Part shown: piece after piece, positions 3,017-64,000 of the stretch
How the letters are laid out: each line of letters begins with the position of its first letter
Position numbering within the stretch: the stretch's first letter is position 1
DNA from: an uncultured Candidatus Saccharibacteria bacterium
GTDB lineage: Bacteria; Patescibacteriota; Minisyncoccia; Sungbacterales; HO2-52-23
NCBI GenBank assembly: GCA_964361495.1
Contig: CAYIAH010000001.1
Coordinates: 1,057 to 65,056, forward strand
Length of the DNA stretch: 64,000 nt
Direction: 5' to 3'
Translations under genes and position numbers: made by a program
The notes under the pieces: generated by a model
What the model was told of the DNA's origin: nothing
The model's input: only the letters and a program-made list of their open reading frames with translations
Databases searched by the model: none

Positions 3017-4432
3017 ATGCGTACACTCACAAAAGACCTGCCGCAGAAAATCGGCGAATCAGTGACCCTTATGGGGTGGATTAATGCGCGCCGCAATCAC
3101 GGCAAGCTCATTTTTATTGATGTGCGCGACCGGTGGGGAGTCGCGCAGGTAGTATGCGCTCCGGCGAATAAAGAATTATTTGGAAAGGTTGAGCGCGTGC
3201 GTCCGGAGTGGGTAGTGAGCGTGGAGGGCATGGTCAAGGAGCGGCCAGCGGGCATGCGGAATCCGGACTTTGCCACGGGGGGTATTGAAGTTGAGGCAGT
3301 AGATCTTGAAATTCTTTCGGAAGCAAAGACGCCTCCATTTGCTCTTGACAGCGACGGCTACGAGATCGGGGAAGAGCACCGTCTAAAATATCGGTATCTT
3401 GATCTTCGACGCGCCCGGCTTCAGAAGAATATAGAAATGCGGGATCGTGTCATTGCGTTTTTCCGCGAGTGGCTTCACGCCCGCGATTTTCTGGAAATTG
3501 AAACACCGATTCTTACAAAATCAACTCCCGAAGGCGCGCGCGATTACGTGGTTCCGTCGCGTCTGTACCCGGGCGCGTTTTATGCTTTGCCTCAATCGCC
3601 CCAGCAGTATAAACAATTGTTGATGGTCGCGGGATTTGAGCGGTATTTTCAGATTGCGCGCTGTTTCAGGGATGAAGATACGCGGGGCGACCGGCAGCCG
3701 GAATTTACTCAGCTTGATATTGAGATGAGTTTCGTGGAACAGGAAGACGTGCTGTCGCTTATTGAGGAACTTTACGCGGCGCTCGTTAAAACTCTGTTTC
3801 CGGAAAAACGGATAGCGGCATTTCCTTTTCCGCGGCTCACCTACCAGGAGGCAACGGCGCGGTGGGGCACTGATAAACCGGATTTGCGGACGAATAAAGA
3901 CGATCCGAATGAACTCGCCTTTGCGTTCATTGTTGATTTTCCCATGTTTGAATGGAAAGAACGGGAGCAGCGATGGGATGCGGTGCATCATCCGTTTACG
4001 AAAATCAAAAATCCTTCGCCGGGCAGGCCGCAATCTGAAATCCGAAAAGAAACCGCCGGAATGCTTATTGCCCAGCAGTATGATTTCGTATTGAATGGGT
4101 ATGAGATCGGCGGCGGTTCAATCCGCGAACATGATCCTGCGATCATTGAGGAGGTTTTTAAGGTGATGGGGCATACGGCCGAGGACGTGCGCGCCAAATT
4201 CGGGCATCTGCTTGAAGCGTTTATGCACGGTGTTCCGCCGCACGGCGGGATCGCGCCCGGCATTGACCGCGCGCTCATGATTTTACAGATGGAGCCGAAT
4301 ATCCGCGAAGTGATTGCTTTTCCTAAAACCGGCGATGCACGCGATCTTATGATGGATGCGCCTTCGGCGTTAGAAAAAGAACAGCTTGAAGAACTCCATT
4401 TGGAGATAAAAAAGAGCAAGAGCGGTGATTAG
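3017..4432 (+). CDS. aspS: Aspartyl-tRNA synthetase, bacterial-type catalytic core, short form without the GAD insertion
   Basis: OB anticodon-binding N-terminus. Motifs FYALPQSPQQYKQLLM, FRDEDTRGDRQPEFTQLDIEMSF and a GGGSIREHD motif 3 region. 471 aa versus about 590 for GAD-containing enzymes. Confidence 0.88.
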   Translation: MRTLTKDLPQKIGESVTLMGWINARRNHGKLIFIDVRDRWGVAQVVCAPANKELFGKVERVRPEWVVSVEGMVKERPAGMRNPDFATGGIEVEAVDLEILSEAKTPPFALDSDGYEIGEEHRLKYRYLDLRRARLQKNIEMRDRVIAFFREWLHARDFLEIETPILTKSTPEGARDYVVPSRLYPGAFYALPQSPQQYKQLLMVAGFERYFQIARCFRDEDTRGDRQPEFTQLDIEMSFVEQEDVLSLIEELYAALVKTLFPEKRIAAFPFPRLTYQEATARWGTDKPDLRTNKDDPNELAFAFIVDFPMFEWKEREQRWDAVHHPFTKIKNPSPGRPQSEIRKETAGMLIAQQYDFVLNGYEIGGGSIREHDPAIIEEVFKVMGHTAEDVRAKFGHLLEAFMHGVPPHGGIAPGIDRALMILQMEPNIREVIAFPKTGDARDLMMDAPSALEKEQLEELHLEIKKSKSGD

Positions 4433-4456
4433 GATATTATATGCAACAACGCGTCG

Positions 4457-4613
4457 TTCCCCTCGTCCCGCTTGCAGAGATTCCAGACTTAGTCTAGCAT
4501 ATTCCAGACTAAGTCTGGAATAATTAGACTTAGTCTGGAATGATTGAACTGCGATGCGGAGAAAAGATGGAGTTCGATCCCCACCCATTTACTGTAATAG
4601 GGGACGAGGGGAA
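4457..4613. mobile_element. MITE-like element, 157 bp, bounded by perfect 13-bp terminal inverted repeats (TTCCCCTCGTCCC / GGGACGAGGGGAA) and enclosing three overlapping copies of a 17-19 bp palindrome (TTCCAGACTAAGTCTGGAA)
   Basis: Terminal inverted repeats at 4457-4469 and 4601-4613. Internal palindromes at 4481-4540. A tRNA T-arm-like stretch GGAGTTCGATCCCC at 4568-4583. The same palindrome recurs at 62961-62999. Confidence 0.4.
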
Positions 4614-4645
4614 TCCGCATATACCTATTAATTTTTTTACACGTC

Positions 4646-5566
4646 ATGTCATATACGCGGCTTTCCATTTTGAATGCGATGCTGGTGCTTATGCTGTTCT
4701 TTTTTTCAACAACTATTGATAGTGACCGCGGAATCGCGAGTCCGTCACTTCGTCCTGCAGAAAAAAAAGAAAAAGTTGGTTTGAATGAAGTATCTCGGCG
4801 CCGCGCGCCGCCGGAACTCTCGGCGGAATCGTATGTCGTGAGAATAATCGGGGAAGAAACGCCGCTTTTGAGTCGCCGGTCTGATAAACCGCTCCCGCCC
4901 GCAAGTTTGACCAAGCTTATGACTGCGGCGATTGCGTTTGAAGGACTTGCGCCGGATCAGCCTATTCTTCTGTCAAGAGATGCGAAGAACGTTGAAGAAA
5001 AAACGAGCGGTGCCGCGGCGGGAGAAGTGTTTTCCCGCGACGGCGCGATTAAAATGGCACTTATTTCTTCGGCGAACGATGCCGCGCTTGCACTCGCCGA
5101 TGAAACGGGCAGAAAACGCGGAGCATATGATTTTTCGTCAGCACTCGCGCGGTTTGTGGAAACAATGAATCAGTATGCGCGCGCGCAGGGACTCCGGGCG
5201 ACCAATTTCGTCAATCCCACGGGTCTTGATATGGAAGGGCATCACGCGAGCGCCGATGACATCGCGCGTCTTATGGAATACTTATGGAATCGCCATCCGC
5301 GCCTTCTCGAATTTTCACGCACCATTGAAACATCAGTTTTATCGCGGCAGGGATATAATCACAAGGTGAGCAATACGAACGACTTGTTAAAAGAATTCCC
5401 GGCGATTCTCGGCAGTAAAACGGGATTCACCGATGCGGCGCAGGGAGCGCTCGCGCTTTGGTATCCGGCATCGGACCGCAGAGTCGCGCTTGTGGTGCTC
5501 CTTGGGTCTCCTGATCGATTTAAAGATGGGAAGAGAGTATTGCGATGGCTTGAAGATGTATTTTAG
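4646..5566 (+). CDS. D-alanyl-D-alanine carboxypeptidase, serine peptidase S11 (PBP5/DacA-like)
   Basis: N-terminal signal/TM segment. SxxK active site in PASLTKLMTAA. SxN-like ISSAND. KTG motif in GSKTGFT. Confidence 0.75.
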   Translation: MSYTRLSILNAMLVLMLFFFSTTIDSDRGIASPSLRPAEKKEKVGLNEVSRRRAPPELSAESYVVRIIGEETPLLSRRSDKPLPPASLTKLMTAAIAFEGLAPDQPILLSRDAKNVEEKTSGAAAGEVFSRDGAIKMALISSANDAALALADETGRKRGAYDFSSALARFVETMNQYARAQGLRATNFVNPTGLDMEGHHASADDIARLMEYLWNRHPRLLEFSRTIETSVLSRQGYNHKVSNTNDLLKEFPAILGSKTGFTDAAQGALALWYPASDRRVALVVLLGSPDRFKDGKRVLRWLEDVF

Positions 5567-21907: not shown

Positions 21908-23221
21908 ATGACGTCAGAATATTTTGTTATCCGCGGCGGTCGGGCTCTCGACGGTTCCGTGCGCATACGAGGGTCAAAAAACGCGGCATCAAAAATGATG
22001 CTTGCTTCTTTGCTCACGAATAAGCCATGCGTGATCCAAAACATTCCGTTCTCTCTTGAAATTGACATTGCGGCCGAATTGTGCGGACGCGCAGGAAGCG
22101 CAGTGACTTTTGATCGGGAGGCGCATGCATGCACACTTCACGCGTCGTCCATCACGACCTCGCAGATTCCGGAGCTCTCCCGAAGGAATCGAATTCCGAT
22201 TCTTGCGATCGGGCCTCTTCTGCATCGAACCGGACAGGTGGAAATTCCTTTTCTCGGAGGGGATCCGATCGGTCACCGTCCCATTGATTTTCATCTTGAG
22301 GCGTTGAACCGCATGGGTGTGCGCATTGAGCGGAGGGAACATTCATATTATGCCGAGGCCGATGAAATTCGTGGCGCGGACATAACCCTTCCTTTTCCGT
22401 CAGTGGGCGCGACGGAAAACATCCTTCTTACCGCCGTATGCGCGAGCGGCCGCACCGTGATTGGAAATGCCGCCGTTGAGCCAGAGGTGATAAATTTGAT
22501 TAATATGCTTACTGCAATGGGCGCAGACATTCACTATGACGCGGCCCAACGCCGTATTGAAATTCAGGGCGTGAGAAATCTTGAAGGGGCGGTGGCGCGC
22601 GCCGTCCCCGACCGAAATGAAGCAGTGTCATTTGTTTCGGCAGCACTCGCGACGAAAGGGAGTCTTAATCTGTATGAAACCGAACCGGCGCATTTCACCG
22701 CATTTCTCGCGGCTCTTGAGGCATGGGGCGCATCATATACCATTCACAGTTGGGGGCTTCGTTTCAAATGCGGCCTCGCGCAACGGCCTGTTTCAATTGA
22801 AACCGCTCCCCATCCGAGCTTCATGACGGACTGGCAGCAGCCGTTTTCGGTTCTCCTCACGCAGGCGAACGGGACTTCGCGCGTTCATGAAACCGTCTAC
22901 GAAGACCGGTTTGGGTACGCAAAGGATCTCAACCGTATGGGAGCGGTCATTTCCGTGTCTGATGAGTGTCTTGGCAACACCGCATGTCGTTTCAACGGTC
23001 AAACATTCAACCATAGCGCACGGATTACGGGACCGACGAAGCTCATGGGCGCTGACATCCACATCACTGACATCCGTGCGGGAATGGCGCATGTGATAGC
23101 GGCGCTCGCGGCAGAAGGAGAATCACTTATCTCGGGAGTGGAGCATCTTGATAGGGGATATGAAAAAATTGATGAGCGGCTAAAAGAATTGGGCGCGGAT
23201 ATCAAACGAATTTCTAATTGA
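21908..23221 (+). CDS. murA: UDP-N-acetylglucosamine 1-carboxyvinyltransferase, with the active-site Cys replaced by Asp
   Basis: Colinear with E. coli MurA from VIRGGRALDGSVRIRGSKNAASKMMLA to HLDRGYEKIDERLKELGADI. The active-site loop FLGGDPIGHRPIDFH aligns with E. coli LPGGCTIGARPVDLH (Cys115 to Asp). Confidence 0.9.
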   Translation: MTSEYFVIRGGRALDGSVRIRGSKNAASKMMLASLLTNKPCVIQNIPFSLEIDIAAELCGRAGSAVTFDREAHACTLHASSITTSQIPELSRRNRIPILAIGPLLHRTGQVEIPFLGGDPIGHRPIDFHLEALNRMGVRIERREHSYYAEADEIRGADITLPFPSVGATENILLTAVCASGRTVIGNAAVEPEVINLINMLTAMGADIHYDAAQRRIEIQGVRNLEGAVARAVPDRNEAVSFVSAALATKGSLNLYETEPAHFTAFLAALEAWGASYTIHSWGLRFKCGLAQRPVSIETAPHPSFMTDWQQPFSVLLTQANGTSRVHETVYEDRFGYAKDLNRMGAVISVSDECLGNTACRFNGQTFNHSARITGPTKLMGADIHITDIRAGMAHVIAALAAEGESLISGVEHLDRGYEKIDERLKELGADIKRISN

Positions 23222-23302
23222 CCTACTTTCCAATAGCGGGTCTTCGTGAATTGAGATTTGATTAGACCAATTAGAAATTAGGTTAATTAGAAATTGATCC
23301 TT

Positions 23303-26890: not shown

Positions 26891-26978
26891 CATAGTGACA
26901 CACGATATACTTATCAGCGGCATAAGTCGGCTCGGATTACGCCCTGGAAACTCGGTTTTCGGATACTGATTCCGAGTA

Positions 26979-27036
26979 GAACCCATCTCAAAATTCCATT
27001 TCGCCTCCGCGACGCGATTTTTGAGATTGAGTTCTC
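26979..27036. repeat. Copy 1 of a roughly 58-nt intergenic hairpin repeat (AGAACCCATCTCAAAATTCCATTTCG...ATTTTTGAGATGGGTTCT family); the 3' arm is slightly degenerate here
   Basis: Identical 26-nt 5' arm at 48985-49010 and 58155-58180. A short GC hairpin (ACTCGG...CCGAGT, 26951-26978) lies immediately 5'. Confidence 0.55.
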
Positions 27037-48707: not shown

Positions 48708-48976
48708 ACAACGCTCACCATTTTTTTTATGCGGCGCGAGCCGTCAAATCCCATCGCGCGGCGCGTAAGAAATTTGACCGCTCCTATTTTGATTGCAAAA
48801 ATAGTATCATCTCTGCCGCGCCGTACGCCGTCTCCTGCAACAAAGTGAGTTCCCCGCTGACGTATGATAATATCCCCAGGTTTAACCCGCTGTCCGTCAG
48901 ATTTTTTAACACCCAGATATTTCGGATGGGAATCACGGCCGTATTTACCCGCGCCCGCGGATTTGGTATGTGCCAT
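48704..48976 (-). CDS. rpmA: 50S ribosomal protein L27
   Basis: MAHTKSAGAGKYGRDSHPKYLGVKK...GDIIIRQRGTHF matches the L27 signature. Confidence 0.9.
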   Translation of the reverse strand: MAHTKSAGAGKYGRDSHPKYLGVKKSDGQRVKPGDIIIRQRGTHFVAGDGVRRGRDDTIFAIKIGAVKFLTRRAMGFDGSRRIKKMVSVV

Positions 48977-48984
48977 ATTTTATT

Positions 48985-49047
48985 AGAACCCATCTCAAAA
49001 TTCCATTTCGTATCCCGGCCTTGAAAGCAAATTTTGAGATGGGCCCT
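48985..49047. repeat. Copy 2 of the roughly 58-nt intergenic hairpin repeat family
   Basis: 5' arm identical to copies 1 and 3; complementary 3' arm ATTTTGAGATGGGCCCT. Located in the divergent spacer between rpmA and the gene at 49063. Confidence 0.55.
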
Positions 49048-49062
49048 AGAAGAATATCAACT

Positions 49063-58127: not shown

Positions 58128-58154
58128 ACATTTATTATAAACTCGCGAGACGCG

Positions 58155-58211
58155 AGAACCCATCTCAAAATTCCATTTCGCCTCCGATACGCGATTTTTG
58201 AGATGGGTTCT
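58155..58211. repeat. Copy 3 of the roughly 58-nt intergenic hairpin repeat family (best-preserved 17-bp stem)
   Basis: AGAACCCATCTCAAAAT ... ATTTTTGAGATGGGTTCT. A short GC hairpin CTCGCGagaCGCGAG lies immediately 5' (58142-58156). Confidence 0.55.
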
Positions 58212-60462
58212 ACTCTCTTTCGAGCATTTTAATAAATTGATCTCCTTCTTGTTTGAAGGCGGGGTCAAGACGCCCGGCTTCAGCGGCCTCTGCCCGCGCC
58301 TCTTTCGTCCTTCCGAAATGCGCAAGATGCGCCGCGTAAATCGCGCGATATTGCGGGTTTTTCGGACTCATCTTGACGAGCAGCTCAAAATATTTAATTG
58401 AGGACGCATAGTCCTTGGCGCGCTGGTATGCAGTCGCAATCTTTGCAAGATCCGCCTCGTCAAGATCGGTGACGGGGATATACTTTTGTATCTCTTCAAT
58501 AATCTCCGGTTTTTTCGCGAACGCCGCAACAGTCCAAAGCCCTGCGGCAGCGAGCTTATAACGCGGTTCAACCCGCCATGCTTTCTCAAGCGCCTGAACC
58601 GCGCGATCAGTATTGCCGAGCATCAAATAATGCTGCGCCAACTCAAAATAAATAAGCTGTTTCCGGGGGCTGAGACGCGCCGCCTCAAGAAGCATTTTCT
58701 CCGCATCCGGCGCATATTTCGTATCAAGCGTCAACGCCTGATTATACAAAGAACCGAGAAGAAGGAGATGTTTGACGTCTCGCGCCGGTCGTTCAATTTC
58801 TTTTAGAATTTCGGGGGTCGCAAATTCCACGAACCGTGCGCGCTCTTCGGGCGTGTACTTTGTATCACTCGCTATTTGGCGCGTCACGTTCCCAAGCTGT
58901 TCATGCGCTTCAGTATCGCCAAAACTTCGATACGATAAGGTCTCTTCAAATGCGGCCCTCAAGTCCGGAAGCGATCTTTGAAATTGATAAAAATTAAGTG
59001 TTTTGATAAGTGACCGCGCTTCACGGATCGGTTTGAGATGAAGCCAATATCCTCCGACTGCGACTGCCGCCACGAGCGCAACGCTCACCGCATACGCTTG
59101 CATGGAAACATCAAAAGAACGCCCTCCGGACTTCACTTCATCATGACGCGCTGCCTCGCGAGAATCCTCCATAAGAAAACTTCCGTAGGCGAGCACTGCA
59201 AAAAAGAGAAGATAGGTATTCAGATTGTCAAATACAAAAAGATTCTGAAGGAAATATGTTGCGGTAAGTCCAAGAAACATGAATCCCTCAAAAAGGAGCG
59301 CGCCTCGGCGCCGTATGTGCCGGATAATCTGCCAGCAAAAAATTCCGAATATCGCAAGATAACTGAGAATCCCCGGAATTCCCGCATGAATAAACCAGTC
59401 GAGGAACACATTGTGCGAGCGGTCAAACCATGGCTCCGCGCCATAGAGTTTCGGATGAAAGTATTTTTGAAAAACAAGATAATAATTTTCCTGCCCCCAG
59501 CCGAAGACCGGCCGCTCCAAGCCCCCCCGAAGCGACATGCCCCAAATTTTGAAACGATCCTGAATCGTGCCCTCGCTCAGTGAATAGTTCGTGAGCCGGC
59601 GGAGCGCCTGGCTTGACTGCACAAAATCGCTTTTACGCGCAATCCAAAAGATCAACGGTATCACCACGACCGCCGCAAGCATCCCTGCGGCATATTTTCT
59701 TCCCATGCCCCAAGGGGCCTTGCGATCCTTTCCGTGCGCCCGATCCCAAAAGAAGAGCAACGCGCCGACGCATAACGGAACTACCGCAACAAGCGCCACC
59801 ACAACTCCGCGCGTTGCCGTAAAGTAAATAATCAGGGATTCAAAAACAAGAAGCGCCGCATACAGCGATACACGCCACCATTTCTTCCAAAACTGATACA
59901 TCATTATCACCAACAACCACACATGAAAAAGAAGATACGCCGCCAAGTATGTCGGATTGCCGATTGTTGAATCCACCCTGAATCCTCCCTGCAATGAAAC
60001 CCGATAGCCCAATTTCTGAAGAAGCGCGAAATACGAGACAACCGCGCTCGCCGCAAACGACACATGAAGAAACGTGAGCCAGTCGCGCCTCGTCTTGAAC
60101 ACGCTCGTGAGCATCAGAAAATAAAGATAGAGATGCGAGAGCATCATGAATCCTTCCATCCGCTCATAATTTGAGAAGAAGGAGCGATACGGATTCGAAC
60201 TCACGAGGTCCGCGAAAAAAACAATCCCCACAAAAATTGAGACCGCTTTGAGAAGCGGCGTGAACTTCGGCCGATACTCGCGCCTCGCGATCGCAAGTCC
60301 GACCCACAACGCAAAAATAACCTCAACAAGAATCCGGAATGTAAAATTCTTCCCGGTAATAAAGGGGAAGAGCATGGTATTCGCAACGTACAGCGGCAAA
60401 ATCGGAATCACCCAAAGCCCGATTTTGATGATCCAGAGAAATATTTTCTCTAAAAACGACAT
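58210..60462 (-). CDS. O-antigen ligase (Wzy_C)-family polytopic membrane protein with a C-terminal TPR-repeat domain
   Basis: About 12 TM helices in the N-terminal 420 aa. C-terminal TPR-like helical repeats (LGNTDRAVQALEKAWRVEP ... YRAIYAAHLAHFGRTKEA). Confidence 0.65.
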   Translation of the reverse strand: MSFLEKIFLWIIKIGLWVIPILPLYVANTMLFPFITGKNFTFRILVEVIFALWVGLAIARREYRPKFTPLLKAVSIFVGIVFFADLVSSNPYRSFFSNYERMEGFMMLSHLYLYFLMLTSVFKTRRDWLTFLHVSFAASAVVSYFALLQKLGYRVSLQGGFRVDSTIGNPTYLAAYLLFHVWLLVIMMYQFWKKWWRVSLYAALLVFESLIIYFTATRGVVVALVAVVPLCVGALLFFWDRAHGKDRKAPWGMGRKYAAGMLAAVVVIPLIFWIARKSDFVQSSQALRRLTNYSLSEGTIQDRFKIWGMSLRGGLERPVFGWGQENYYLVFQKYFHPKLYGAEPWFDRSHNVFLDWFIHAGIPGILSYLAIFGIFCWQIIRHIRRRGALLFEGFMFLGLTATYFLQNLFVFDNLNTYLLFFAVLAYGSFLMEDSREAARHDEVKSGGRSFDVSMQAYAVSVALVAAVAVGGYWLHLKPIREARSLIKTLNFYQFQRSLPDLRAAFEETLSYRSFGDTEAHEQLGNVTRQIASDTKYTPEERARFVEFATPEILKEIERPARDVKHLLLLGSLYNQALTLDTKYAPDAEKMLLEAARLSPRKQLIYFELAQHYLMLGNTDRAVQALEKAWRVEPRYKLAAAGLWTVAAFAKKPEIIEEIQKYIPVTDLDEADLAKIATAYQRAKDYASSIKYFELLVKMSPKNPQYRAIYAAHLAHFGRTKEARAEAAEAGRLDPAFKQEGDQFIKMLERE

Positions 60463-62960: not shown

Positions 62961-62999
62961 TTCTAGACTAAGTCTGGAATTTCCAGACTTAGTCTAGAA
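62961..62999. repeat. Perfect 39-bp palindrome TTCTAGACTAAGTCTGGAA t TTCCAGACTTAGTCTAGAA, the same motif family as 4481-4540
   Basis: Read directly. Lies about 125 bp upstream of the 62838 start and 155 bp downstream of the rpsI stop. Confidence 0.5.
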
Positions 63000-63140: not shown

Positions 63141-63171
63141 AATGGCAAAAACGACTATCGTTTTTGCCATT
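63141..63171. other. Perfect 13-bp-stem hairpin AATGGCAAAAACG actat CGTTTTTGCCATT overlapping the rpsI stop codon
   Basis: Read directly; not followed by a U-tract on either strand. Confidence 0.35.
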
Positions 63172-63763
63172 GCGGGGCGCGACGCGCTTTTTTCAATCCG
63201 AATTTTTTGCGCTCCTTCATGCGCGGGTCGCGCGTGAGGAAACCGGCGCGCCGCAGGCGCTTTCGGAAATCAGGATTGAATTTTGTGAGACAGCGCGTGA
63301 GTCCGTGCCGCACGGCTTCCGCATGCGCGTGAAGTCCGCCGCCCTTCACCTTTACCGAAACTCGAAAACGTCCGGAAAGCTTCATTTTTTTGAGCGCATC
63401 CTCGCTGATTTTTTGAAGTTCTGATGTCGGAAAATAAACCGTATAGGGTTTCTCGTTCACCGTAAAATCACCCGCCCGCGTGAAAAGACGGACCCGCGCG
63501 ACCGCGGTCTTCCGTCGCCCTACCGCTTCGAAATAGCGATCCGGTTTTTTTATCCTATCTTCACCTTCGAGAATCTCCGCCTCCGTCTCGACCTCTTCCC
63601 GTTCCTCTGCCGCGACTGTTGCCGGCGCCTCGACTAAATCCTTCTCCTTTTCCGGACCAGCTTTTTTAACACCCCGCCGCGCCGCGGGCTTCTTTGCGCG
63701 TTCCCGCGGAGCCGCGCGTTCACGCATTTCAGATGTTTCAGATGGCTTTGTTTTTCTAACCAT
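63155..63763 (-). CDS. rpsI: 30S ribosomal protein S9 with a roughly 75-aa Lys/Glu/Ala-rich N-terminal extension
   Basis: C-terminal core GRRKTAVARVRL...GGGLHAHAEAVRHGLTRCL...KRAPQWQKR is the S9 signature. Start placed at ATG 63763; the track start 63871 would overlap rplM. Confidence 0.85.
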   Translation of the reverse strand: MVRKTKPSETSEMRERAAPRERAKKPAARRGVKKAGPEKEKDLVEAPATVAAEEREEVETEAEILEGEDRIKKPDRYFEAVGRRKTAVARVRLFTRAGDFTVNEKPYTVYFPTSELQKISEDALKKMKLSGRFRVSVKVKGGGLHAHAEAVRHGLTRCLTKFNPDFRKRLRRAGFLTRDPRMKERKKFGLKKARRAPQWQKR

Positions 63764-64000
63764 GAAAATTTTCCACAGATGTGCCACGCCGAAGAATGAG
63801 ATGGCGCATAAAGCGATCCCGTAATTTATTCTTGGGCAGCATCCCCCGCACGGCGCGCCGTACCGCGACACGCGAATCGCGCTTCATGACGTGCTCGAGC
63901 GTCTCTTCTTTCATGCCCCCCGGATATCCCGAATGTCTACGGTAAAGCTTCTGCCCTCTTTTCTTTCCCGTTGTTCTTACGTAATCCGTATTATAGACAG
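63756..64000 (-). CDS. rplM: 50S ribosomal protein L13, 3' part (the gene begins beyond the window end)
   Basis: The minus-strand frame translates to ...TGKKRGQKLYRRHSGYPGGMKEETLEHVMKRDSRVAVRRAVRGMLPKNKLRD..., with RHSGYPGG being the L13 signature. The stop is at 63756-63758, overlapping the rpsI start. Confidence 0.7.
   Translation of the reverse strand, partial: VYNTDYVRTTGKKRGQKLYRRHSGYPGGMKEETLEHVMKRDSRVAVRRAVRGMLPKNKLRDRFMRHLILRRGTSVENFHG

What the first reader, a model, noticed from the sequence alone, without database searches (positions are those of the whole stretch)
4457..4613. MITE-like element with 13-bp terminal inverted repeats enclosing a CAGACTAAGTCTGG palindrome array; the same palindrome recurs at 62961-62999
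Seen:
- The aspS-dacA spacer contains perfect terminal inverted repeats TTCCCCTCGTCCC (4457-4469) and GGGACGAGGGGAA (4601-4613).
- Between them are three overlapping palindromes of the TTCCAGACT(T/A)AGTCTGGAA type (4481-4540) and a tRNA T-arm-like stretch GGAGTTCGATCCCC.
- 58 kb away, a perfect 39-bp palindrome of the same motif (62961-62999) sits upstream of a hypothetical gene, but without the flanking terminal inverted repeats.

Inference:
- The first locus may be a non-autonomous transposable element (MITE) or a large structured RNA.
- The recurring palindrome may be a recognition site for a dimeric DNA-binding protein (regulon operator or transposase/recombinase site).
- The T-arm-like fragment could be a remnant of a tRNA-targeted integration site.
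Basis: partly seen in the sequence, partly recalled or inferred. Interest (0 to 1): 0.6.

Follow-up and report, generated by a model that had tools for sequence, protein, structure and literature searches.

The report
REPIN-like palindrome doublets in CPR bacteria
The recurring palindrome belongs to a family of tiny hairpin-forming repeat pairs scattered through many ultra-small (CPR) bacterial genomes, where copies also sit in-frame inside essential genes; the 157-bp "MITE" drawn around it is a single-copy local structure.

Summary
The 13-bp inverted repeat and five copies of AGACTWAGTCT lie at the stated coordinates (0.13 expected by chance).

The window comes from a Sungbacteria-like CPR bacterium in Hainich groundwater. 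The repeated unit is the palindrome pair, not the 157-bp block. A scan of species-representative genomes found more than 112 stretches carrying AGACTAAGTCT…AGACTTAGTCT doublets, mostly in CPR MAGs and often many per genome.

- Adjacent units almost always alternate their centre base (93 of 95).
- Outer arms differ between lineages but stay complementary, and the spacer varies from 8 to 30 nt.
- About 40% of copies lie in-frame inside housekeeping genes (LigA, UvrC, TopA, MurJ, aaRS), adding 10-13 residues that homologues lack.
- At orthologous sites the arms and core stay 100% identical while the flanks are only 57-84% identical.

This matches REPIN-like mobile hairpin doublets. It does not fit an operator or a terminator.

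The TIR-bounded 157-bp unit has no second copy, no target-site duplication and no tRNA signal, and the closest relative has a 20-bp spacer there. No transposase was found, so the mechanism is inferred.

The parts
4480..4500 (.). Palindrome unit 1 (ATTCCAGACTTAGTCTAGCAT), centre T. The outer arm is intact and the inner arm is degenerate.
   Evidence: D1, I1, I2
4501..4521 (.). Palindrome unit 2 (ATTCCAGACTAAGTCTGGAAT), centre A. It is a perfect 21-bp palindrome and forms the canonical A->T doublet with unit 3.
   Evidence: I3, I7; the A->T rule comes
4521..4541 (.). Palindrome unit 3 (TAATTAGACTTAGTCTGGAAT), centre T. Its T at -1 covaries with the A at +1 of unit 1.
   Evidence: (I2)
62961..62979 (.). 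Palindrome unit 4 (TTCTAGACTAAGTCTGGAA), centre A.
   Evidence: I6
62981..62999 (.). Palindrome unit 5 (TTCCAGACTTAGTCTAGAA), centre T. With unit 4 it forms a perfect 39-bp A->T doublet. The outer arms TTCT/AGAA carry a compensatory change relative to the family consensus TTCC/GGAA.
   Evidence: I6
4457..4469 (.). Left arm of the locus-specific 13-bp perfect inverted repeat. It is not part of the dispersed family.
   Evidence: (I4)
4601..4613 (.). Right arm of the locus-specific 13-bp perfect inverted repeat.
   Evidence: (I4)
4542..4579 (.). Second local hairpin (GATTGAACT ... AGTTCGATC) that absorbs the 'T-arm-like' string. It is single copy.

Best explanation
The palindromes at 4480-4541 and 62961-62999 are two intergenic copies of a dispersed family of very short inverted-repeat doublets. 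The family layout is [lineage-specific outer arm]-AGACTAAGTCT-[variable spacer]-AGACTTAGTCT-[complementary outer arm]. The window carries the Sungbacteria/Saccharibacteria dialect, ATTCC...GGAAT.

The family behaves like REPINs (REP doublets forming hairpins). The unit that is kept is the doublet, which can fold into one hairpin with a 15-19 bp stem. It spreads or is maintained within genomes of CPR/Patescibacteria. It lands in spacers and, when the frame stays open, inside genes.

Shown: the family exists, its doublet/hairpin architecture, its insertion status relative to homologues, and its unusual conservation.

Inferred: copies are handled as single-stranded DNA hairpins by a trans-acting enzyme encoded once per genome (RAYT/HUH-like or other) that I did not find.

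The 13-bp outer inverted repeat and the second hairpin are private to this spacer. They may be the remains of an older hairpin or element into which the array inserted, and they are not the ends of a MITE. I see no evidence that either copy regulates dacA or the DUF7282 gene.
For: - **Enrichment.** More than 112 stretches matched the doublet pattern in species-representative genomes. I expected only about 7 chance hits for that pattern. Hits are concentrated in Falkow-, Moran-, Sacchari-, Sung- and Kerfeldbacteria and Parcubacteria MAGs, with up to 22 distinct doublets per MAG among the fetched loci.
- **Doublet rule.** 93 of 95 adjacent pairs in CPR-type genomes alternate the centre base (84 A->T, 9 T->A). 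Unit spacing ranges from 19 to 41 bp, even within one genome.
- **Covarying arms.** Outer arms differ by lineage (TTCC/GGAA, TCCCA/TGGGA, TGTCCT/AGGACA, AACCG/CGGTT, G..C+AAAG/CTTT) but stay complementary across the doublet. In the window, TTCT/AGAA at locus 2 and A/T between units 1 and 3 are compensatory changes.
- **Insertions in genes.** About 40% of copies (51 of 123 by crude gene calls) lie in long ORFs. The 20 copies inspected read through in-frame inside LigA, UvrC, TopA, LeuRS-like, AspRS/AsnRS, GatB, RtcB, GDH and MurJ. Alignments show 10-13 extra residues that homologues lack. MurJ DNA shows filled sites (L037, L128) against an empty site (L129).
- **Conservation.** Orthologous copies keep arms and core 100% identical while the aligned regions (element plus 150-bp flanks) are 84%, 70% and 57% identical overall, and the spacers differ.
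- **No TSD.** 0 of 25 Falkowbacteria-type copies have a target-site duplication. Their 30-mers are almost invariant, and the two loop variants are self-complementary.
- **Empty site here.** The nearest relative (L119; HK 78% and S11 65% aa identity, same synteny) has only 20 bp between the aaRS and S11 genes.
- **Other families.** The same window holds a second short palindromic family in three copies. Neighbouring Sungbacteria carry further such families.
Against: - No transposase, RAYT or HUH gene was found in the window or by a crude HUH...Y motif scan of about 0.8 Mb of family loci. No gene recurs next to the elements.
- No clean presence/absence polymorphism between near-identical genomes was obtained, so mobility rests on comparisons at 57-85% nucleotide identity.
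- Perfect conservation at orthologous sites fits host selection or a molecular drive as well as it fits a selfish replicator.
- Classic REP/REPINs are extragenic and carry GTAG/CGTC heads (PMC3116915, PMC3733652). These copies are often intragenic and lack those heads.
- The scan was seeded with the exact 11-mer core, so 'core conservation' is partly ascertainment.
- Only two loci are seen in this organism's 64 kb.
- Gene calls in the fetched loci are my own crude longest-ORF calls.
Confidence: 0.6

Rival explanations
1. Operator or regulon site. A dimeric or tetrameric transcription factor binds duplex AGACTWAGTCT units upstream of dacA-GT4 and the DUF7282 gene (a cell-envelope regulon).
For: - Unit spacing in the window is 20-21 bp, about two helical turns.
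- Both arrays lie 104-123 nt upstream of envelope-related genes.
- The core is a dyad.
- Bacteroidales loci carry 21-bp direct-repeat arrays of the same 11-mer at syntenic positions.
Against: - Family copies occur in-frame inside housekeeping genes and inside operons.
- Distances to the next start codon range from 7 to more than 500 nt.
- Unit spacing ranges from 19 to 41 bp, which changes the helical phase.
- Alternation of the centre base (93 of 95) is not needed for independent dyad sites.
- The closest relative lacks the site upstream of its orthologous dacA.
- No sigma-70-like promoter is adjacent at locus 1.
Confidence: 0.1
2. RNA-level element. The doublet hairpin, or the whole 157-nt three-way junction, acts in the transcript as a terminator, a 3'-end stabiliser, a processing site or a structured ncRNA.
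For: - The predicted folds are very stable: z=-10 for 4450-4620 on both strands, and z=-5.9 for the backbone without the array.
- Intergenic copies lie closer to the upstream stop than to the downstream start in 29 of 44 co-directional cases. They are rarely between divergent genes: 2 divergent against 12 convergent overall, and 1 against 5 in CPR-type genomes.
- Locus 2 scores as a terminator-like site on the + strand.
- REPs are known to stabilise upstream mRNA (PMC3733652 abstract).
Against: - No Rfam family matches.
- The 157-nt structure is absent from every relative examined.
- There is no U-tract on the strand that is actually transcribed at locus 2.
- Copies inside ORFs and inside ribosomal-protein and pilus operons argue against termination.
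- The element is strand-symmetric, so nothing points to one transcribed strand.
Confidence: 0.15
3. The whole 4457-4613 block is a MITE, a non-autonomous transposon with 13-bp TIRs that carries the palindromes as cargo.
For: - The 13-bp TIRs are perfect.
- The size, 157 bp, is typical of MITEs.
- The closest relative lacks the block.
- Two other family copies sit inside 11-bp outer inverted repeats of similar span (L040 163 nt, L071 187 nt).
- L127 has a 155-nt element of unrelated sequence with similar architecture in the next spacer.
Against: - The TIR pair is single copy. The metagenome scan, whose only hit came from a Hainich assembly of the source site, found only this locus.
- There is no second TIR in the window at 0-1 mismatch.
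- The interior outside the palindromes matches nothing.
- There is no target-site duplication.
- Outer inverted repeats of 11 nt or more around family copies are barely above chance once this locus is excluded (2 seen against about 0.4 expected by my estimate).
- The neighbourhood has been rearranged (loss of scpAB, different aaRS catalytic domain), so absence in relatives is not a clean empty site.
Confidence: 0.1
4. Uptake-signal-like sequence. The core is a DNA uptake sequence of competent CPR bacteria, maintained by biased uptake and recombination, with lineage 'dialects'.
For: - The same 11-mer core occurs with lineage-specific flanks.
- Copies are perfectly conserved at orthologous sites despite diverged flanks.
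- Copies occur in genes and as inverted pairs after genes.
Against: - Singlets are rare. Extra occurrences in the fetched loci are 8 doublets against 2 singlets.
- Gene copies are insertions of 10-13 codons, not point-mutational matches.
- Density in this organism is low, about 1 per 30 kb.
Confidence: 0.05

Closest known systems
REP / REPIN elements (REP doublets forming hairpins) of Pseudomonas and Enterobacteria, mobilised by RAYT transposases (PMC3116915; bioRxiv 10.1101/2021.07.10.451892)
   Same: Both have a short imperfect palindromic unit, and doublets in inverted orientation are the dominant form. Both have two highly conserved arms separated by a spacer whose length and sequence vary, with compensatory changes. 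Both have many near-identical copies per genome, long persistence at orthologous sites, and no TSD.
   Different: These doublets are much shorter (30-45 bp against about 70-110 bp). About 40% of copies are intragenic and in-frame. They have no GTAG/CGTC head. No RAYT was found nearby. The hosts are CPR/Patescibacteria, for which my searches of the held paper library turned up no such report.
Rickettsia palindromic elements (RPE) and PARCEL-type coding palindromic repeats (PMC1166351, PMC1458961, PMC2996958)
   Same: [quoted passage not shown]
   Different: RPEs and PARCELs are 100-150 bp and taxon-restricted. The element here adds only 10-13 codons and is a strict doublet with an 11-bp conserved core. 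The two copies in this window are intergenic.
MITEs such as Correia/NEMIS, and palindrome-associated elements derived from IS200/IS605 (PMC2229807, PMC6006769)
   Same: These are also small, non-autonomous, hairpin-forming and dispersed. Derivatives of the IS200/IS605 type also lack a TSD and are recognised as ssDNA hairpins.
   Different: Classical MITEs have TIRs plus a TSD and are 100-400 bp. The 157-bp block here has TIRs but no TSD and only one copy. No parental IS was found.
Tandem dyad operators (e.g. MetJ met-boxes, AGACGTCT repeats; recalled from memory)
   Same: Both show a short dyad containing AGAC..GTCT, repeated in tandem upstream of genes.
   Different: The family's spacing is variable, its orientation alternates, and its copies sit inside ORFs and operons. 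No regulator is known.

Membership tests
REP/REPIN | Short (about 20-60 bp) imperfectly palindromic unit | tested here: met
   The units are 19-21 bp, e.g. ATTCCAGACTWAGTCTGGAAT.
REP/REPIN | Doublets in inverted orientation are over-represented relative to singlets and can form one hairpin | tested here: met
   93 of 95 adjacent pairs alternate orientation. Additional occurrences in the loci are 8 doublets against 2 singlets. The hairpins are predicted.
REP/REPIN | Conserved arms, variable spacer, compensatory changes | tested here: met
   Compensatory TTCT/AGAA occurs in the window.
REP/REPIN | Extragenic placement | tested here: not met
   51 of 123 copies lie inside long ORFs. The 20 inspected read in-frame through housekeeping genes. 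The two window copies are extragenic.
REP/REPIN | Cognate RAYT (Y1/HUH transposase) gene, typically flanked by REPs | tested here: inconclusive
   None was found in the window. A crude HUH...Y regex over about 0.8 Mb of loci found none. Whole genomes could not be searched.
REP/REPIN | GTAG or CGTC tetranucleotide head (PMC3733652) | tested here: not met
   The unit ends are ATTCC/GGAAT or lineage variants, and the core is AGACT/AGTCT.
REP/REPIN | High copy number within the same genome | tested here: inconclusive
   This organism shows 2 loci in 64 kb. Up to 22 distinct doublets per MAG were found in other CPR MAGs among the fetched loci. The complete genome is not available.
MITE (for the 157-bp block) | Terminal inverted repeats | tested here: met
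   A perfect 13-bp inverted repeat.
MITE (for the 157-bp block) | Target-site duplication flanking the TIRs | tested here: not met
   The flanks are ...gcgtcg| and |tccgca..., with no direct repeat.
MITE (for the 157-bp block) | Multiple dispersed copies | tested here: not met
   The metagenome scan returned only the same locus. The window has no second copy. The interior is unique.
Rickettsia-type coding palindromic element (RPE) | In-frame insertion into ORFs, read through as peptide | tested here: met
   Met for family members elsewhere, not for the two window copies.
Rickettsia-type coding palindromic element (RPE) | Element length of about 100-150 bp and sequence homology to RPE families | tested here: not met
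   The elements are 30-45 bp. Sequence homology to RPE families was not compared.
Transcription-factor operator | Fixed position relative to promoters or start codons, and fixed half-site spacing | tested here: not met
tRNA / tRNA remnant | Cloverleaf or T-arm detectable by ARAGORN or the Rfam tRNA model | tested here: not met
   The string pairs elsewhere.
Known structured RNA (Rfam 15) | Match to a curated covariance model | tested here: not met
   There were no hits at gathering score. Only sub-threshold miRNA-like hairpin hits appeared at E<=10.

The most novel reading that the evidence does not exclude
AGACTWAGTCT doublets may be a CPR-wide, long-lived hairpin replicator, or a host-maintained hairpin signal, kept sequence-perfect even inside essential genes. 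It would be served by a partner enzyme unrelated to known RAYT/IS200 transposases. That would make it a new 'coding-tolerant' class of nano-mobile element. It would also be a source of the lineage-specific peptide insertions that characterise CPR proteins.
Probability: 0.3. Interest if true: 0.75.

Novelty: new variant of a known kind. Interest (0 to 1): 0.58.

Why it matters
CPR/Patescibacteria have tiny, gene-dense genomes that are usually described as streamlined. My searches of the held paper library found no report of a family of 30-45 bp hairpin doublets that recurs across several CPR phyla. This family inserts 10-13 codons into essential genes such as LigA, UvrC, TopA, MurJ and aaRS, and it stays sequence-perfect while its surroundings diverge.

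It would offer three things:
- a mechanism for some of the unexplained insertions in CPR proteins;
- a handle for finding the enzyme that maintains the doublets;
- markers for strain-level population genomics.

For annotation of this window, the practical message is that the palindromes should not be read as an operator, a tRNA remnant or a 157-bp MITE.

Tried and rejected
- **Rfam and ARAGORN.** Rfam at gathering score on the whole window, Rfam at E<=10 on 4350-4750, and ARAGORN found no tRNA, tmRNA or known RNA.
- **Promoter and terminator scans.** Nothing at locus 1. At locus 2 the only terminator-like call is the palindrome itself, on the non-coding strand.
- **TIR-pair scan of metagenome contigs.** Only the same Hainich locus was returned, so the 157-bp MITE reading was rejected.
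- **Viral contigs.** There were 3 hits. The one I inspected is a 23-bp direct tandem repeat, so the element does not appear to be phage-borne.
- **blastn-short of the array flanks against all loci.** Only chance 12-15-mers.
- **All-vs-all clustering of 821 ORFs from family loci.** I looked for a recurrent neighbour such as a transposase and found only housekeeping genes.
- **HUH...Y regex for IS200/RAYT-like ORFs.** None credible.
- **PaaX/Cas2-like gene.** In L125 this gene is flanked by another palindrome family. It has homologues in only 2 other loci and none in the window, so the association is not supported.
- **Remnants of scpA/scpB in the spacer.** None.
- **Clean empty sites among the fetched loci.** Orthologous pairs mostly both carry the element. 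MurJ gave filled against empty sites, but only at about 66-71% aa identity.
- **Outer inverted repeats as a general feature of family copies.** Not significant once this locus is excluded.
- **Literature.** Searches for the motif and for palindromic or MITE repeats in CPR found nothing specific.

Full report
**1. Observation**

The sequence is as described. TTCCCCTCGTCCC (4457-4469) and GGGACGAGGGGAA (4601-4613) form a perfect 13-bp inverted repeat 131 nt apart. The 11-mer AGACTWAGTCT occurs five times in 64 kb, with no 1-mismatch relatives. Its positions are 4485, 4506 and 4526 (spacing 21 and 20) and 62965 and 62985 (spacing 20). Chance expectation is 0.13, and 0 of 100 shuffles reached 5.

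The three units at 4480-4541 are contiguous 20-21 bp units with centre bases T, A, T. Positions 62961-62999 form a perfect 39-bp palindrome made of an A-centred and a T-centred unit.

The flanking genes are a class II AspRS and a Peptidase_S11 followed by a GT4 transferase. The second site lies between rpsI and a DUF7282 membrane protein, both on the minus strand.

**2. Source organism**

Identical proteins occur on contigs from the Hainich aquifer (wells H51 and H32). The best named homologues of both flanking genes are from Candidatus Sungbacteria and Giovannonibacteria. The window is therefore from a Sungbacteria-like member of the CPR/Patescibacteria.

**3. What is actually repeated**

I scanned one genome per species for two cores 8-32 nt apart. 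By my estimate this pattern should give about 7 chance hits.

Most hits come from CPR MAGs: Falkow-, Moran-, Sacchari-, Sung- and Kerfeldbacteria and Parcubacteria. A few come from MAGs labelled Gammaproteobacteria, Methylomirabilis or Bdellovibrionales. Their loci share greA-asnS-serS synteny with the CPR loci, so they are probably CPR-like (this is an inference). Several MAGs contribute many loci, up to 22 distinct doublets among the fetched pieces.

The common architecture is [outer arm]-AGACTAAGTCT-[8-30 nt]-AGACTTAGTCT-[complementary outer arm]. The outer arms are lineage-specific 'dialects':
- ATTCC/GGAAT in Sung- and Saccharibacteria, and in this window;
- TCCCA/TGGGA in Moranbacteria;
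- TGTCCT/AGGACA in CAYHPG01;
- AACCG/CGGTT in DYHP01;
- an almost invariant 32-bp perfect palindrome, gAGACTAAGTCTCCAATTGGAGACTTAGTCTc, in Falkowbacteria (25 distinct copies).

In CPR-type genomes, 93 of 95 adjacent units alternate their centre base (84 A->T, 9 T->A). Unit spacing varies between 19 and 41 bp, even within one genome.

Alternation means the two units are inverted copies that can pair along their full length, including the centre A·T. Variable spacing is easy to tolerate for a hairpin loop and hard to tolerate for a rigid duplex-binding oligomer.

In the window, the outer arms of locus 2 (TTCT...AGAA) carry a compensatory double change relative to the consensus TTCC...GGAA. The +1 A of unit 1 covaries with the -1 T of unit 3. 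This again points to pairing at the doublet level.

**4. Copies inside genes**

By a crude longest-ORF gene call, 51 of 123 copies lie inside long ORFs. I inspected 20 of these, and in all of them the element is read through in-frame. It encodes ETKSPIGDLVS, QTKSG...PDLVW, RLSLE... and similar peptides. The host genes are recognisable housekeeping proteins: LigA, UvrC, TopA, a LeuRS-like protein, AspRS/AsnRS, GatB, RtcB, GDH and MurJ.

Protein alignments show that these are extra residues:
- An AsnRS-like protein and two different positions of LigA carry the segment where homologues have a gap.
- In MurJ, the Sungbacteria protein P0241 and P0243 carry PDLVW...FQTKSG in a loop where P0244, P0246 and P0247 have nothing.
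- At the DNA level, L037 and L128 show two ATTCCAGACTWAGTCTGGAAT units, separated by 0 and 20 nt respectively. L129 is empty.

Intergenic copies also occur inside operons, between rpsE and rplO and between pilT and pilC. Of the intergenic copies, 44 lie between co-directional genes, 12 between convergent genes and 2 between divergent genes.

No target-site duplication is seen in 0 of 25 Falkowbacteria-type copies. Among the 23 copies from the two Falkowbacteria MAGs, AAG| or |CTT adjoins the element on at least one side in all 23. That pattern could reflect decaying arms, or a target preference of the IS200/IS605 kind. This is a lead only.

**5. Unusual conservation**

Where two diverged genomes carry the element at the same site, the arms and cores are 100% identical. 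Yet the aligned regions (element plus 150-bp flanks) are only 84% identical overall in UvrC, 70% in LigA and 57% in PepA. The spacer between units differs in sequence or length. Something keeps these sequences perfect. It could be ongoing turnover by a sequence-specific enzyme, selection, or a molecular drive.

**6. The 157-bp block**

A scan of the metagenome contig collection for the two 13-mers 110-140 nt apart found only this same locus. The single hit came from a Hainich assembly of the source site. The window has no further copy at 0-1 mismatch. The parts of the block outside the palindromes, and the flanks of locus 2, match nothing else. There is no target-site duplication. ARAGORN and Rfam see no tRNA-like or known RNA. 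The 'T-arm-like' string pairs with GATTGAACT in a local hairpin.

The block is nevertheless a real structure. Without the array, the backbone still folds with z=-5.9 into a 14-bp plus 6-bp outer stem and a second hairpin.

It is not conserved in relatives:
- The closest relative (L119; HK 78% and S11 65% aa identity, same gene order) has a 20-bp spacer.
- Other relatives have scpA-scpB between aspS and dacA.
- L125 carries a different palindrome family downstream of aspS.

The comparison with L119 is not a clean empty site. Its aaRS shares only the N-terminal ~110 residues closely with the window's AspRS (39% identity overall). A related genome (L127) has a 155-nt element in the next spacer with a long terminal inverted repeat and two inner hairpins of unrelated sequence. 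Two other family copies sit inside 11-bp outer inverted repeats, which is barely above chance.

My reading is that the 13-bp repeat is a private, older hairpin or element in this spacer that now encloses an inserted array. I hold this weakly.

**7. Mechanism**

The best-supported model is a REPIN-like element. A doublet of short palindromic units forms one hairpin and is the unit of maintenance. Its arms are conserved and its spacer is free. Many near-identical copies occur per genome, and it has no TSD. These are the criteria of Bertels and Rainey (PMC3116915).

The model departs from classical REP/REPINs in four ways. It tolerates, or even prefers, in-frame genic sites, as Rickettsia palindromic elements do (PMC1166351, PMC1458961). 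It is very small. It lacks GTAG/CGTC heads (PMC3733652). And I found no RAYT in the window, by a crude HUH...Y motif scan of about 0.8 Mb of loci, or as a recurrent neighbour.

The enzymology (ssDNA hairpin, trans-acting enzyme) is therefore inference.

The rival explanations are an operator, an RNA element, a 157-bp MITE and an uptake signal. They are scored separately. Each fails on at least one tested prediction.

**8. Novelty**

Searches of the held paper library for the motif, and for palindromic or MITE repeats in CPR, found nothing specific. I file this as a new variant of a known kind (REP/REPIN/RPE-like small palindromic repeats).

The two copies in this window are ordinary intergenic members of the family. 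The interest lies in the family: its breadth across CPR, its in-frame copies in essential genes, and its sequence perfection at old orthologous sites.

**Caveats**
- The collection scan required the exact 11-mer, so core conservation is partly ascertainment.
- Gene calls in the fetched loci are crude.
- No near-identical filled/empty allele pair was obtained.

Noticed in passing
window 26977-27036, 48975-49057, 58142-58224: A second dispersed palindromic family occurs here in three copies. It is a roughly 60-bp hairpin element: AGAACCCATCTCAAAATTCCATTTCG...(loop)...ATTTTGAGATGGGTTCT. The 16-mer matches 5 times within 2 mismatches (three exact copies plus two inverted partners), against 0.09 expected. 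All copies are intergenic.
   Followed up: partly
window 23201-23295: Another long imperfect inverted repeat (AATTTCTAATTGACCTA.../...TAGACCAATTAGAAATT, 25-26 nt arms, 80-88%) lies in the spacer before the mreB-like gene at 23294.
   Followed up: no
window 3017-4432 vs L119 4581-5909: The AspRS here and the aaRS at the syntenic position of the closest relative share about 80% identity over the first ~110 residues (anticodon-binding domain). Their catalytic domains are of different types (39% identity overall). This suggests a domain or segment replacement in one lineage. The window's version is the common Parcubacteria type, 70-79% identical to many others.
   Followed up: partly
window 4433-4645 vs L124 and L127: More distant relatives have scpA-scpB between aspS and the S11 peptidase. 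The window and L119 lack these genes at that position, and no scpA/scpB was found anywhere in the 64 kb.
   Followed up: partly
L125 3417-4137: In another Hainich Sungbacteria-like contig, a 184-aa wHTH plus PaaX_M/Cas2-like protein lies downstream of aspS. It is bracketed by roughly 19-bp inverted repeats (AAACTTAATCATCACTTAT...) and by doublets of a third palindrome family (CACTTACCAGCGATCGCTGGTAAGTG). It looks like a small gene-carrying element.
   Followed up: partly
L127 7767-7922: The S11-GT4 spacer of a related genome holds a 155-nt element with a 34-nt (85%) terminal inverted repeat, two inner hairpins and many ATTCGTA/TACGAAT heptamers (fold z=-5.5). Its architecture resembles the window's 157-bp block, but its sequence is unrelated.
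   Followed up: partly
L006, L019, L026, L038, L100, L087, L115 (Bacteroidales/Bacteroidetes MAGs): The same 11-mer, AGACTTAGTCT, occurs as three or four direct repeats with a 21-bp period. The centre is mostly T in every unit, so the units do not alternate. In L019, L026 and L038 the arrays sit at syntenic positions after a conserved 753-aa gene. This looks like a protein-binding array and differs from the CPR doublets.
   Followed up: no
window 63155-63871 (minus strand) and 63141-63171: The longest-ORF call for rpsI gives 238 aa, with the S9 domain only in residues 118-238. That is a long, basic N-terminal extension, though the true start codon was not checked. A perfect 14-bp hairpin (AATGGCAAAAACGA/TCGTTTTTGCCATT) overlaps the stop codon.
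   Followed up: no
L121 6480-6780 (IMG/VR contig, 173 kb): This viral-contig hit to the search pattern is a long direct tandem array with a 23-bp period (GGAGACTTAGTCTCTGAGAGGGT). It is unrelated in architecture to the CPR doublets.
   Followed up: partly
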